From: Neodothiora populina
Taxonomy: Eukaryota
Direction: 5' to 3'
DNA: 64,000 bases
Assembly (NCBI RefSeq): GCF_041146345.1
Contig: NW_027191417.1
Span: forward strand, 310,001-374,000
Shown here: positions 4,237 through 10,059 of the stretch, piece after piece
How the letters are laid out: each line of letters begins with the position of its first letter
Position numbering within the stretch: the stretch's first letter is position 1
Program-made: the position numbers and the translations under genes
The notes under the pieces: generated by a model
Told to the model about the DNA's origin: nothing
What the model saw: the letters and a program-made list of their open reading frames with translations, nothing else
Databases searched by the model: none

Positions 4237-7200
4237 TCAATCAGAGCAAGCAGGGGCGTTCTTCGCGGTCTTGGTCGCCGTGCTGAACACAGTCTGCGTG
4301 CTCTTGACCAACGATACCTTGGTCACAGGCGCAGGTGTGATGAACACGGTCGAGCCCGCTGCCGAGACGGTCGTGGTCTTGACGACGGTCGACGTGGAAG
4401 CCGGCAAAGTGGTCTTAATGATTACGGTGGAGCCTGAGGACCTGGTCACCGTGATGGTGGACGCGGCGGCAGTGACTACAGATGTAGCGCTGATGGTGCG
4501 GAAGCTTGTCGTGGTGGCCACTTCGCCAGACTCTGTGATGTATGCGGTCGAGTAGGCGATGTTGGTGACAGCAGCGCCGGGGAGTGACTCCGTGGCCACG
4601 GAAGAGACGGTCGCGACACTGGTGACAGTGAAGACGTTGGCGCTCTCAGTCACGGCAGACGTCTTGAACGCCAGGATGGTGACCGTCACGGTCGAGGTGG
4701 CAGCCTTGAGCGTCGTGACACCGCTCTTGTTGATGGTGCTGGTCACGCTGGTGTAGTAAGTCGAGCCAGGGAGACTTGCGGTGGACGTCTTGACGAAGGT
4801 AGTGAGAGTTGTAAGCTGCGTCACGGTGGTGGTGCCTGCGGCTGCACGAGCTTCGACGCCACGACGGAACAGACGTGCTGCATTTGCTGTGGGAATACAC
4901 TTCTCTGTCACTGTCGTCTTCTTTGTCGTGGTCTTGATCGCAGTCACAAAGTTCGTCACGGTGCTTGCCTTTGCTGTCGATGTTTTGACGGCGCCAGCCG
5001 CACTCACAGTGACTACAGACGTCACGACGCCACCCTTGCGAGTTGCAGTGCTGTAGACAGTCACGACGGTGCCCTCGGATACTGTGCTTGTGACGGCTTT
5101 AGGAGTGGTTGTTCTGACAGCAAATACAGTGGTGGTCGCCTTGACAGTGGAAGTCTTTCCTGCTACCGAAGTCGTCAAGGTAGTCACAGAGGTGGTCTTG
5201 ATGGTAGTGCTCTTTCCTTGAACGGTAGTGGTGCCGTAGACAGTCTCGGTAGACTTGAGAGTTGTAGTGCCAGCAGCAGCAGTAACAGTGGTGAAGACGG
5301 TGGAAGTGGACTTCAAGGTTGATGTCCTGAAAACTGGCTCCGGGGTGATCGTGGCCACGTCGTTAGCAGTCACTGTCATGACAGAAGTGCTGGTGACGTC
5401 AGGGACTTGGATGGTTGTGTACAAAGTCTCCTTGTCCGTGACAATCTTGGTGACATATGCGGTAACAAAAGGAACGCTGCTAGACGAAATAGACGAAGAA
5501 GACGAAGCAGACGAAATGATTGAGGTAGACGACACAACCGAAGAGGTGACAGTGCTGCTAACAGTCGAGCATGGTGCAGGAGCGGATCCAAAGCCGACAG
5601 TGAAGGGCTGGACGTCGACTACGCTAAAGTCAATCCAGGAAGTGGTTGGGAAGAAGGTTGCAAGCTGGTAGGCGGCGACCTCGGAGTCACTGAACTGCTT
5701 GGAGAAGCCTGCACGCTGACAGATGTTGGATCCAGGACCGTAGTTGTGGTACTCTCCGTATGTCACTCCGTCGGTCTGTGGAGCCGACTTGCTCCACTGA
5801 GTCCAGCCAGCTGATCCGATCATTGAATCCATGTAAGTGCCGATATATGCGACGCGAGCATTGTTGTTCCAAGGACGTCCAAGACTGACGTTCTTGAAAC
5901 CAGACAGTCCCGCAGCGGGCTTGAGCGTACATTGATCGAAGACGAAACCAGCTTGTGTGGTGTTGGTGGTACGCTTGGCGGCAGTGATGGCAATTCCGTC
6001 CTCGTTGGGTGAGATTGTAGAGTTCAAGAAGTATCCTGATCCGGCGCCGAAGATGAAATCAACGTTACCTTCGACGTAAGACTTGAAGGCAAACATGGAA
6101 CCACTGATGTACAAGGTGTCCTGATTGCCGTAGATCTGGCAGCCGTGCATGAAAGCATACTTGCTGCTCTTGACAGCGAAGCCAAGAGATGCGATGTTCT
6201 GCTGGGTACCGTTGTTGTTGCGGAAGTTGATGTTATAGGCATTGAAGTAGTTTCCGGTGGCATACACCGTGGCAGCATCGACATCGCTACCCTCACCTTG
6301 AGTATCCTCACCATAAGACTGCTGGATAGTGACCTGATTCTGAGCGAAGTCATCGGTGGAGGAACTGTAACCCATGAAGATGGTGGAACCACTCTTGTTC
6401 ACAATAATCTTCTCCTCATAGACACCAGGGTAAATGAAGATCGTGGCGTTGACCTTGCTGGTAGTGGGAGCGACGTCCAACGCAGCCTGAATGGTGTTGT
6501 AAGTAATGACTCCAGGGATGCTGTTCTTCGAGACGATGATAGCACCGGTGGGAGGAACGGTGCCGTTGTATGCGGAGCTGCCAGACACGGTGATGTTGGT
6601 GGGAGTCGTCGTGTTGATTACCGCAGGCATGGGAGTGCTGATGGAGTTCCAGAAGGTCATATCAATCCATGAGGTAGAGTCCATGACACTTTCAAGGGGG
6701 TAAGTATCAGAGGTCAGAAGTGTAGCATTGCCAAATGCCAGCCGAGCTACAGCATTATTTTCCCAGTTGGATGGACCGGAGTTGTTGTACTCGGCGAATG
6801 TGATATGATCAGTTCGAGGATCGGTAGCAGACCAGGTCTTCCATCCAGAAGGGTTGATAACGTCGTCAAGGTAAGAGTTCTTGACAACAACAAGAGCATA
6901 CTGCGAGTAAGGTCTTCCAAGGTAGATAGTGTTGGTGAGATCGACTGTAGCATCGGGAGCATTTGTGAACAAACACTGATCGAAGATATACCCACCAATG
7001 GCAGATGATGAAGCCCTCGAGTGTGCAGTGATTGCTGACTTGGCTCTCTTGGCACCGATAGTGCAGCCCTTAAAGTATGCCTTGCTGTATCCCCAGATGA
7101 AGTCAATTGCACCACCGATGTAGCAGCTCTCGTAGTACTGGTAACCATTGGTGGCTCCGGTAAGAAGAGTGTCCTGCCAGCCTTGGAAATAACAGGCGTA

Positions 7201-10059: not shown

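What the first reader, a model, noticed from the sequence alone, without database searches (positions are those of the whole stretch)
4237..10059. Giant single-exon secreted protein with four tandem pectin-methylesterase (CE8) domains: a possible one-chain pectin-remodelling machine
Seen: signal peptide, four mutually divergent CE8 repeats joined by Ser/Thr linkers, a ~440-aa T/V/S tail, and no intron in 5.8 kb although many neighbouring genes are intron-rich. Known: characterised fungal PMEs are single-domain enzymes of roughly 320-350 aa. Inference: tandem, non-identical catalytic units plus a non-catalytic unit could give processive or multivalent de-esterification, or several specificities on one chain. 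Similar long CE8 proteins may already be annotated in other ascomycetes; I know of no functional study but cannot confirm novelty.
Basis: partly seen in the sequence, partly recalled or inferred. Interest (0 to 1): 0.75.

Follow-up and report, generated by a model that had tools for sequence, protein, structure and literature searches.

The report
Four-unit fungal pectin methylesterase gene
This is one intact fungal gene for a very long secreted protein with one inactive and three apparently active pectin methylesterase units plus a positively charged threonine-rich tail; many fungi carry the same design, yet no study of it was found.

Summary
Window 4237-10059 (minus strand) is one uninterrupted 1,940-codon ORF. 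It carries four Pfam PF01095 units, all above the curated cut-off, and a 443-aa Thr/Ser/Val-rich tail.

The interpretation needs three corrections.
- Unit 1 is a conserved pseudo-enzyme. It lacks the Gln-Asp pair and the Arg of the catalytic centre. Units 2-4 keep them, as do the matching units in nearly all of 121 proteins.
- The architecture is not rare. 332 proteins of similar length matched, and the 120 listed come from three Pezizomycotina classes, with four or five units, auto-annotated as CE8/pectinesterase.
- The tail is a family-specific module. It is net positive in 101 of 101 homologues, has two conserved cysteines, a dibasic motif and a conserved polar C-terminus, and has no GPI-like end.

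AlphaFold gives confident beta-helices for all four units and no confident fold for the tail.

Best reading: a secreted pectin methylesterase with three active sites, held on anionic polymers by the dead unit and the cationic tail. Six literature searches found no study of this design. Activity, substrate, processing and expression are untested.

The parts
4237..10059 (-). Complete coding sequence, 1,940 codons plus stop, no intron required
   Evidence: It is colinear with homologues end to end (P0002 75% identity, 100% coverage).
10006..10059 (-). Probable signal peptide (about residues 1-18)
   Evidence: Read directly from the sequence. Most full-length homologues start with a similar hydrophobic stretch. 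No signal-peptide predictor was run.
9835..10005 (-). N-terminal Ser/Thr linker (residues 19-75), including a perfect 9-bp x 4.9 repeat at 9881-9924
   Evidence: 48% S+T over residues 1-75. (pLDDT below 50). (tandem repeat).
8878..9834 (-). CE8 unit 1 (residues 76-394): beta-helix and conserved pseudo-enzyme. T200/G201 replace Gln-Asp, D221-K222 replace the second Asp region, A285 replaces Arg, N287 replaces Trp
   Evidence: PF01095 49.9 bits. Carrot PME 1gq8 E 3.1e-12. Alignments. AlphaFold pLDDT 86-98 per 10-residue block. Residue positions.
8698..8877 (-). Ser-rich linker (residues 395-454)
   Evidence: 72% S+T. pLDDT below 50. 33% mean identity to homologues.
7717..8697 (-). CE8 unit 2 (residues 455-781), catalytic set Q601 D602 D623 R684 kept
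   Evidence: PF01095 129.7 bits. A. niger PME 5c1e E 7.8e-37..
6592..7659 (-). CE8 unit 3 (residues 801-1156), catalytic set Q962 D963 D986 R1049 kept; the most conserved unit
   Evidence: PF01095 131.8 bits. 5c1c E 3e-41. 78% mean identity to 49 homologues..
5569..6537 (-). CE8 unit 4 (residues 1175-1497), catalytic set Q1313 D1314 D1334 R1395 W1397 kept
   Evidence: PF01095 150.6 bits. 5c1e E 1.9e-35. AlphaFold pLDDT mostly 80-96. Foldseek 5c1c E 1.4e-18, TM 0.89.
4240..5568 (-). Thr/Val/Ser/Lys-rich tail (residues 1498-1940), net charge +21, no confident predicted fold
   Evidence: pLDDT 21-35. No Pfam family at E<=1. Among shorter proteins it was found only together with PF01095.
4834..4899 (-). 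Conserved Cys1721 followed by a basic motif with Arg1732-Arg1733 (candidate dibasic processing site)
   Evidence: C and P are invariant in 55 aligned rows. [KR]R lies within 40 aa after the Cys in 51 of 55 rows. Alignment shown.
4240..4275 (-). Conserved polar C-terminus with Cys1938; not hydrophobic, so not GPI-like
   Evidence: Invariant Cys. Mean hydropathy of the last 15 residues is -0.69.

Best explanation
This is one intact gene for a secreted 1,940-aa protein laid out as beads on a string. The order is: signal peptide, Ser/Thr linker, a catalytically dead CE8 beta-helix (unit 1), a 60-aa Ser-rich linker, three CE8 beta-helices that each keep the Gln-Asp, Asp and Arg of the pectin methylesterase active site (units 2-4), and a 443-aa polycationic Thr/Val/Ser/Lys tail.

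It is an orthologue of an old Pezizomycotina family with four or five such units, which arose by internal duplication.

Most likely mechanism: outside the cell, the three active sites are joined by short or flexible links and remove methyl esters from neighbouring stretches of homogalacturonan. This would create dense local patches of free carboxylates. The dead unit has a former active-site region that is conserved in a new form. Together with the positively charged, probably heavily O-glycosylated tail, it would hold the chain on polyanionic material: the de-esterified product or the fungus's own wall or matrix.

Shown here: the ORF, four units, their folds, which residues are kept or lost, their conservation, the charge pattern, and the two cysteines with the dibasic motif.

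Inferred: enzyme activity, pectin as the substrate, the binding roles of unit 1 and the tail, glycosylation, cleavage at the dibasic site, and a Cys1721-Cys1938 disulfide.
For: ORF and domains.

Folds:
- Unit 4 has pLDDT mostly 80-96 and matches A. niger PME 5c1c (Foldseek E 1.4e-18, TM 0.89).
- Units 1-3 are beta-rich with pLDDT 86-98, 60-92 and 52-94 per block. The best Foldseek match is 5c1c, E 5.7e-15, TM 0.86. pTM is 0.40, so no fixed arrangement between units is predicted.

Catalytic set. PMC10530356 and PMC12109409 (passages) name two Asp and one Arg as the CE8 catalytic centre. In 121 proteins:
- Last unit: first Asp 121/121, second Asp 120/121, Arg 120/121.
- Second-to-last unit: 121/121 for all three.
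- Third-to-last unit: 120/121, 119/121 and 121/121. Every miss is an alignment gap.

Dead unit. In the first unit of the 83 four-unit proteins:
- The second-Asp column is K in 71, Y in 7, Q in 4 and R in 1, so D in 0.
- The Arg column is A in 69, T in 11 and others in 3, so R in 0.
- The Trp column is N in 79.

Constraint: mean identity to the window is 71-78% for units 2-4, 55% for unit 1, 44% for the tail and 33-35% for the linkers.

Tail:
- Net positive in 101/101 homologues with a tail of at least 300 aa (median +18), while the CE8 body is net negative in 101/101 (median -23).
- Two Cys in 95/101.
- Dibasic motif in 51/55 rows.
- Among proteins under 1,067 aa the tail matched 13, of which 11 carry PF01095 and 2 are short fragments.

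Age: units group by position, not by species (last unit 120/120, support 1.0; third-to-last unit support 1.0; second-to-last 0.60; N-terminal units 141, support 0.97).
Against: - There is no expression, protein or activity evidence for this gene or any family member.
- Neighbouring genes are unrelated to pectin.
- The first oxyanion-hole Gln (carrot Q113; numbering read off the 1gq8 alignment, role recalled) is kept in unit 4 (Q in 78/83 four-unit proteins) but not at the aligned column of units 2 and 3 (A/P/S/T/K). phmmer places an N (unit 2) or a nearby Q (unit 3) there. Their activity or specificity may therefore differ.
- By its source names the family also occurs in fungi that I recall as rock-inhabiting (Friedmanniomyces, Cryoendolithus, Meristemomyces, Recurvomyces), where plant pectin is not an obvious substrate.
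- Some representatives have only a dead unit plus the tail (P0177, P0184, P0186), and in P0169 every unit lacks the first Asp. The scaffold can evidently persist without catalysis.
- The tail has no confident structure and no informative relatives.
- Whether unit 1 keeps the second Asp is ambiguous: phmmer aligns D221 to it, while my profile aligns K222.
Confidence: 0.6

Rival explanations
1. The enzyme's real substrate is not plant homogalacturonan. It would instead be another methyl-esterified or related uronic-acid polymer, for example in the fungus's own extracellular matrix or in algal or lichen partners. On this reading the protein is a self-matrix remodelling enzyme held in the wall by its tail.
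For: - Source names include fungi I recall as rock-inhabiting or extremotolerant black fungi.
- No pectin-degradation genes sit nearby.
- The Q113-equivalent differs in units 2 and 3.
- The units form their own clade apart from the other sampled PMEs (support 0.85).
Against: - Units 2-4 match a biochemically characterised fungal PME (5c1c/5c1e) at E 1e-35 to 1e-41 and keep its catalytic residues.
- Most named carriers are plant-associated (Aureobasidium, Pleosporales, Botryosphaeriales, Elsinoe).
- No alternative substrate is known for CE8 in fungi (recalled).
Confidence: 0.15
2. The protein is mainly a non-catalytic surface protein, such as an adhesin or matrix fibre. The rigid beta-helices would act as spacers or lectins, and the sticky Thr/Val-rich cationic tail would mediate attachment.
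For: - Variants exist with only a dead unit plus the tail, or with all units lacking the first Asp.
- The tail is conserved and cationic.
- The dead unit gives the most confident fold.
Against: - The catalytic Asp-Asp-Arg set is kept in three units in nearly all of 121 proteins. These units are also the most conserved parts (71-78% identity). Catalysis therefore appears to be under selection in this lineage.
- No adhesin family was found by Pfam.
Confidence: 0.1
3. The long ORF is an artefact: a fused gene model, several genes read through, or a decaying pseudogene.
For: No transcript evidence was available, and the protein is unusually long for a fungal CAZyme.
Against: - There are no stops in 1,940 codons.
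- There is a single N-terminal signal-like sequence.
- The same order of units and the same C-terminus appear in over 100 proteins from many genera.
- Sequence conservation is strong.
Confidence: 0.03

Closest known systems
Aspergillus niger pectin methylesterase (PDB 5c1c/5c1e), a single-domain fungal CE8
   Same: It is the best solved relative of units 2-4 (E 1.9e-35 to 3e-41). The beta-helix fold is the same (TM 0.86-0.89), and the same QD, D and R motifs are present.
   Different: It is one 299-residue domain. The reference list of PMC10530356 titles its paper as describing a non-processive, salt-requiring, acidophilic enzyme. That paper (PMC4714216) was not held. It has no dead unit, no tandem units and no tail.
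Auto-annotated 4- and 5-unit CE8 proteins of Pezizomycotina (e.g. Aureobasidium spp., Parastagonospora nodorum, Coniochaeta ligniaria, Diplodia spp., several Aspergillus spp.)
   Same: They are orthologues at 51-75% identity, with the same unit order, the same dead N-terminal unit(s), and the same tail and C-terminus.
   Different: 32 of the 121 examined have five units, with two degenerate units at the N-terminus. None was found to have been studied. Their accession numbers could not be retrieved, so no search by accession was made.
Butyrivibrio fibrisolvens PmeC5, a 2,089-aa secreted multidomain bacterial PME (PMC12109409; abstract and passages)
   Same: It is also a very long secreted protein that combines a CE8 domain with non-catalytic anchoring or adhesin-like parts.
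   Different: It has one CE8 domain plus a PL9 lyase and adhesin or cell-wall-binding domains. It has no CE8 tandem and no pseudo-CE8. It is bacterial and unrelated in its other modules.
Bifidobacterium GH28+CE8 fusion (PMC11322527; passages) and Talaromyces verruculosus CE8+GH28 and 'CE8_e105 + CE8_e105' proteins (PMC13436326; Table 2 passage)
   Same: These are multi-module pectin enzymes containing CE8. The Talaromyces two-CE8 protein has a signal peptide and is listed as 145-fold induced on pectin.
   Different: They have two modules, not four.
Single-domain relatives of unit 4 in Taphrina deformans (378 aa) and Xylariales (351-360 aa)
   Same: They are 43-50% identical to unit 4 and form a clade with the unit-4 lineage (support 0.999).
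   Different: They have one unit and no tail. They look like the stand-alone form from which, or beside which, the tandem arose.

Membership tests
CE8 / Pfam PF01095 pectinesterase | Significant match to the family profile above the curated cut-off | tested here: met
   Units 1-4 score 49.9, 129.7, 131.8 and 150.6 bits against a cut-off of 27.
CE8 / Pfam PF01095 pectinesterase | Right-handed parallel beta-helix fold like solved PMEs | tested here: met
   Unit 4: Foldseek 5c1c TM 0.89, rmsd 2.5. The units 1-3 model is beta-rich and confident, with 5c1c TM 0.86 for one unit. Unit 1 was not submitted to a fold search on its own; its support is pLDDT 86-98 plus a sequence match to 1gq8 at E 3.1e-12.
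Catalytically competent pectin methylesterase (EC 3.1.1.11) | Two catalytic Asp and one Arg at the active centre (named in PMC10530356 and PMC12109409) | tested here: met
   This row covers units 2-4 only: D602/D623/R684, D963/D986/R1049 and D1314/D1334/R1395.
Catalytically competent pectin methylesterase (EC 3.1.1.11) | The same Asp-Asp-Arg set in unit 1 | tested here: not met
   The first Asp and its Gln are replaced by T/G, and Arg by Ala. Only the second Asp is ambiguous (D221 or K222). Unit 1 is a CE8-fold pseudo-enzyme, not an enzyme.
Catalytically competent pectin methylesterase (EC 3.1.1.11) | Methanol release from methyl-esterified homogalacturonan | not testable with these tools
   This needs expression and an enzyme assay.
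GPI-anchored fungal wall protein | Hydrophobic C-terminal GPI signal after a small-residue omega site | tested here: not met
   The C-terminus is polar and conserved (last-15 hydropathy -0.69; alignment). No GPI predictor was run.
PIR, flocculin, Als-type or other named wall/adhesin families | Match to the family's Pfam repeat or domain in the tail | tested here: not met
   No Pfam family at E<=1 in residues 1470-1940. The ESM Atlas gave no usable hit.
Plant-type group 2 PME (pro-region plus PME) | N-terminal PMEI-like pro-domain PF04043 | tested here: not met
   PF01095 is the only family found in the whole protein.
Kex2-processed secretory protein | Conserved exposed dibasic site that is actually cleaved | tested here: inconclusive
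   [KR]R lies within 40 aa after the conserved Cys in 51 of 55 aligned homologues, in a low-confidence, probably exposed region. Cleavage itself is untested, and the protease specificity is recalled.

The most novel reading that the evidence does not exclude
The family would be a product-anchored pectin 'zipper' with a second, non-catalytic life. The conserved pseudo-CE8 unit would act as a lectin for homogalacturonan. The polycationic tail would latch onto the carboxylate blocks that the three active units create, so a non-processive fungal enzyme type becomes locally blockwise. The tail might be cut at its dibasic site and held together by a Cys1721-Cys1938 bridge.

In lineages that keep only the dead unit and the tail, or dead versions of all units, the same scaffold would serve purely as an adhesin or matrix protein. 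That would make this a documented enzyme-to-adhesin transition.
Probability: 0.15. Interest if true: 0.7.

Novelty: new variant of a known kind. Interest (0 to 1): 0.45.

Why it matters
Characterised fungal pectin methylesterases are single domains, as in the solved A. niger enzyme.

This chain carries three conserved active sites, a conserved pseudo-enzyme unit and a cationic tail. It would be a natural test case for how multivalency and electrostatic tethering shape the pattern of pectin de-esterification. That pattern decides whether plant walls stiffen or become digestible, and it also matters for industrial pectin tailoring.

The family is widespread in plant-associated and stress-tolerant ascomycetes, yet it appears unstudied. 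Its variants without catalytic residues offer a way to study how CAZymes turn into binding proteins.

The window gene itself is an ordinary member of that family.

Tried and rejected
- GPI anchoring was rejected because the C-terminus is polar and conserved.
- A pectin gene cluster was rejected. The neighbours are a DUF3602 protein, an M28 peptidase, a histidine acid phosphatase, an MFS transporter and housekeeping genes.
- A galacturonic-acid-responsive promoter motif (CCNCCAA, recalled) was uninformative. It occurred 39 times against 28.4 expected in the window, with one copy about 600 bp upstream at 10660-10666.
- The tail has no named family. Pfam found nothing and the ESM Atlas gave no usable hit. 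Short proteins matching the tail turned out to be fragments that begin mid-unit.
- AlphaFold gave no fold for the tail (pLDDT 21-35) and no fixed packing between units (pTM 0.40-0.49).
- Accession numbers for named homologues could not be obtained because the database was switched off. No literature search by locus tag was therefore possible.
- The A. niger PME structure paper was not held.
- Complex prediction was not used, because no protein-protein binding claim is made.
- Genome contigs holds bacteria and archaea only and was not used. Supplements of PMC13436326 were not opened.
- No SignalP, GPI or O-glycosylation predictor was available.
- The organism of the window was not determined. 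The best matches are unnamed (75%, 72%), followed by Coniochaeta, Elasticomyces and Aureobasidium (67-69%).
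Full report
**1. What is in the sequence**

Window 4237-10059 holds, on the minus strand, one ATG-to-stop ORF of 1,940 codons (translation). The open frame reaches only five codons beyond the ATG. The plus-strand GC skew is strongly positive across exactly this stretch (0.13-0.24), as expected for a compositionally biased minus-strand gene.

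Pfam finds a single family, PF01095 Pectinesterase, in four stretches (412 bits). Scanned separately, the four segments score 49.9, 129.7, 131.8 and 150.6 bits against a curated cut-off of 27. The 59 N-terminal residues and the last 471 residues match nothing at E<=1. The units are 24-40% identical to one another.

**2. Three live units and one dead one**

Against solved structures, units 2, 3 and 4 match the Aspergillus niger pectin methylesterase 5c1c/5c1e best (E 7.8e-37, 3e-41 and 1.9e-35). Unit 1 matches carrot PME 1gq8 at only 3.1e-12.

Two structure papers name two aspartates and one arginine as the CE8 catalytic centre (PMC10530356, passage; PMC12109409, abstract).
- Units 2-4 keep them, with the preceding glutamine: Q601-D602/D623/R684, Q962-D963/D986/R1049 and Q1313-D1314/D1334/R1395.
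- Unit 1 has T200-G201 in place of Gln-Asp, A285 in place of Arg and N287 in place of the following Trp/Tyr.
- Its second Asp is ambiguous. phmmer aligns D221 to it, while my profile aligns K222.

Unit 1 therefore has the CE8 fold but cannot be a canonical esterase.

One caveat concerns the live units. Reading the 1gq8 numbering off, the first oxyanion-hole glutamine (Q113; role recalled) is kept in unit 4 but not at the aligned column of units 2 and 3. phmmer places an Asn (unit 2) or a nearby Gln (unit 3) there.

**3. Structure predictions**

Residues 1160-1940 were modelled with a 55-row alignment. Unit 4 comes out as a confident beta-helix (blocks mostly 80-96). Everything from about residue 1498 onward has pLDDT 21-35. 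Foldseek's best match to that model is 5c1c (E 1.4e-18, target TM 0.89, rmsd 2.5).

Residues 20-1165 were modelled with a 50-row alignment, giving mean pLDDT 76. Unit 1 is the most confident (86-98 per block), units 2 and 3 are somewhat lower, and the linkers fall below 50. pTM is 0.40, so no fixed arrangement between units is predicted. The best Foldseek match is again 5c1c (E 5.7e-15, TM 0.86).

Foldseek aligns only one unit per hit, and unit 1 was not searched alone. 'Four beta-helices' therefore rests on the HMM scores plus these models.

**4. It is a member of a large, old family**

A search restricted to proteins of 1,067-3,395 aa found 332 with E<=0.001 among 7,998 scored candidates. 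The 120 listed all carry PF01095, with 33-83% identity in the best local alignment.

By my recalled taxonomy, the named sources span three classes:
- Dothideomycetes: many Aureobasidium, Pleosporales such as Parastagonospora, Alternaria and Didymella, Botryosphaeriales such as Diplodia and Lasiodiplodia, Elsinoe, and several Teratosphaeriaceae-type fungi.
- Eurotiomycetes: five Aspergillus species.
- Sordariomycetes: Coniochaeta and Xylariales.

They are annotated automatically as 'pectin lyase-like protein', 'carbohydrate esterase family 8 protein' or 'pectinesterase'. The ESM Atlas already holds the window's protein letter for letter.

I built a profile from the four window units, so it is biased towards this family. 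Counting matches of at least 150 profile positions among 121 proteins gives 83 with four units, 32 with five and 6 with three. Several of these are truncated gene models and were not removed. Some 'four' are therefore cut-down 'five', and the 'three' are fragments.

**5. Conservation of the live and dead states**

Across those 121 proteins:
- Last unit: first Asp in 121, second Asp in 120, Arg in 120.
- Second-to-last unit: all three in 121.
- Third-to-last unit: 120, 119 and 121. Every miss is an alignment gap.

In the first unit of the 83 four-unit proteins:
- The second-Asp column is K 71, Y 7, Q 4, R 1.
- The Arg column is A 69, T 11, others 3.
- The Trp column is N 79.
- For the first-Asp column only the five commonest residues were printed (G 47, T 14, A 11, Q 3, P 2). 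The other 6 rows were not shown.

The dead state is thus itself conserved, which argues for a retained non-catalytic function. In five-unit proteins both N-terminal units lack the first Asp.

Mean identity to the window protein is 78% (unit 3), 73% (unit 4), 71% (unit 2), 55% (unit 1), 44% (tail) and 33-35% (linkers) (49, 32, 49, 49, 32 and 10-41 rows respectively).

**6. Origin**

A FastTree of 510 units (midpoint root) groups units by position, not by species:
- Last units: 120 of 120 in one clade, support 1.0.
- Third-to-last units: 120, support 1.0.
- Second-to-last units: 121, support 0.60.
- All degenerate N-terminal units: 141, support 0.97.

A second tree used 120 sequences rooted on a spinach PME. 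All units plus three single-domain fungal proteins form one clade (0.85), apart from the few other PMEs sampled. The three are from Taphrina deformans (378 aa) and two Xylariales (351 and 360 aa), at 43-50% identity to unit 4. Units 2 and 3 are sisters (1.0), and unit 4 groups with the three single-domain proteins (0.999).

Outgroup sampling was thin because the word-based search returned only 34 short proteins, most of them fragments. I dropped four fragments of multi-unit proteins from this tree.

The tandem therefore arose by internal duplication before these classes diverged. The five-unit form occurs in all three classes, so it may be ancestral; that is an inference.

**7. The tail is a module**

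The tail is 443 aa: T 121, S 65, V 64, K 26, R 9, D 4, E 10. Its net charge is +21, while the four units are net -2, -4, -10 and -6.

In the 101 of 121 proteins with a tail of at least 300 aa:
- The tail is net positive in 101, with a median of +18.
- The CE8 body is net negative in 101, with a median of -23.
- The tail holds exactly two cysteines in 95.

In a 55-row alignment both cysteines (C1721, C1938) are invariant. The first is followed by a conserved basic stretch with [KR]R in 51 of 55 rows.

The C-terminus is conserved across classes and polar, so a GPI signal is excluded.

Searching the tail alone against proteins under 1,067 aa gave 13 hits. Eleven carry PF01095 and begin mid-unit, so they are fragments. 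Two are short pieces without a domain. The tail is therefore known only from this family.

My reading is inferred and partly from recalled biology. The tail would be a heavily O-mannosylated, extended, polycationic stalk that binds polyanions. It may be cut by a Kex2-type protease and held by a disulfide.

**8. Variants that bear on function**

Unit 1 was searched against 1.84 billion cluster representatives. It has 251 matches at E<=0.001, 69 at 1e-10 and 40 at 1e-30.

Among the best are the following variants:
- P0177 (with a signal-like start), P0184 and P0186 have one dead unit plus a tail ending in the conserved Cys motif, and no live unit.
- P0169 (1,860 aa) lacks the first Asp in every unit.
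- P0205 is a six-unit protein.

These are unnamed and could include faulty gene models. Even so, they suggest the scaffold can persist without catalysis.

**9. Context and literature**

The neighbours are a DUF3602 protein, an M28 peptidase, a histidine acid phosphatase and an MFS transporter. Further away lie housekeeping genes. There is no pectin cluster.

Six full-text searches returned plant PME families, bacterial multidomain PMEs and fungal CAZyme surveys. They used phrases for multiple, tandem, two, three, four or five CE8, PME or pectinesterase domains, and combinations with Aureobasidium and A. niger. No description of a fungal multi-CE8 protein appeared.

The nearest items are:
- A Talaromyces verruculosus transcriptome table listing a signal-peptide protein 'CE8_e105 + CE8_e105', 145-fold up on pectin (PMC13436326, passages). 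Its relation to this family is untested.
- Butyrivibrio PmeC5, 2,089 aa, with one CE8 plus PL9 and adhesin-like domains (PMC12109409).
- A Bifidobacterium GH28+CE8 fusion (PMC11322527).

Subscription journals and CAZy itself were not searchable, so 'unstudied' is provisional.

**10. Verdict**

The finding is real. The gene is an ordinary orthologue within a widespread but apparently uncharacterised family. Relative to characterised PMEs, that family is a distinct architectural variant: three conserved active CE8 units, one (or two) conserved pseudo-CE8 units, and a private cationic Cys-bearing tail.

Its multivalency or processivity claim, the binding roles I propose for unit 1 and the tail, and the substrate itself all await expression and biochemistry.

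Noticed in passing
window 9881-9924 (minus-strand CDS, N-terminal linker): A perfect 9-bp tandem repeat of 4.9 copies encodes the repeated Val-Thr-Ser run after the signal peptide. It is a likely site of length polymorphism between strains.
   Followed up: no
proteins P0177, P0184, P0186, P0169, P0205 (library representatives): These are family variants. Three have one dead CE8 unit plus the conserved tail and no live unit. One 1,860-aa protein lacks the first catalytic Asp in every unit. One protein has six units. All are unnamed, so taxon and gene-model quality are unknown.
   Followed up: partly
homologues (e.g. P0004, P0005, P0007, P0076, P0090, P0115): The five-unit form has two degenerate N-terminal units and occurs in Sordariomycetes, Eurotiomycetes and Dothideomycetes. 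In about half of these proteins the second unit keeps the second Asp and the Arg but never the first Asp. It looks like an intermediate stage of decay.
   Followed up: partly
window 4588-5322 (+), 6040-6672 (+) and other frames inside the CDS: Long stop-free frames (up to 244 aa) lie on the opposite strand and in other frames of the gene. They are most likely a by-product of its skewed codon composition rather than genes.
   Followed up: no
window 2558-3211 (-), 13800-15041 (+), 15507-16940 (-), 21639-22985 (+): The flanking ORFs are a DUF3602 protein, an M28 peptidase, a branch-2 histidine (acid) phosphatase and an MFS transporter. Some of these may be secreted or surface proteins, but none relates to pectin.
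   Followed up: partly
window 28948-32007 (+): A 1,019-aa open frame carries a PHD finger, AAA ATPase domains and the ORC4 C-terminal domain. It is an ORC4-like gene with an N-terminal PHD extension.
   Followed up: no
window 11759-12163 and 12157-12528 (-); 41079-41675 and 41531-42097 (+): Adjacent open frames in different phases are consistent with intron-split genes. One pair includes an alpha-amylase catalytic-domain piece.
   Followed up: no
whole protein P0001: The ESM Atlas holds this exact 1,940-aa sequence but has no structure model for it. The protein has therefore been predicted before from public data.
   Followed up: no
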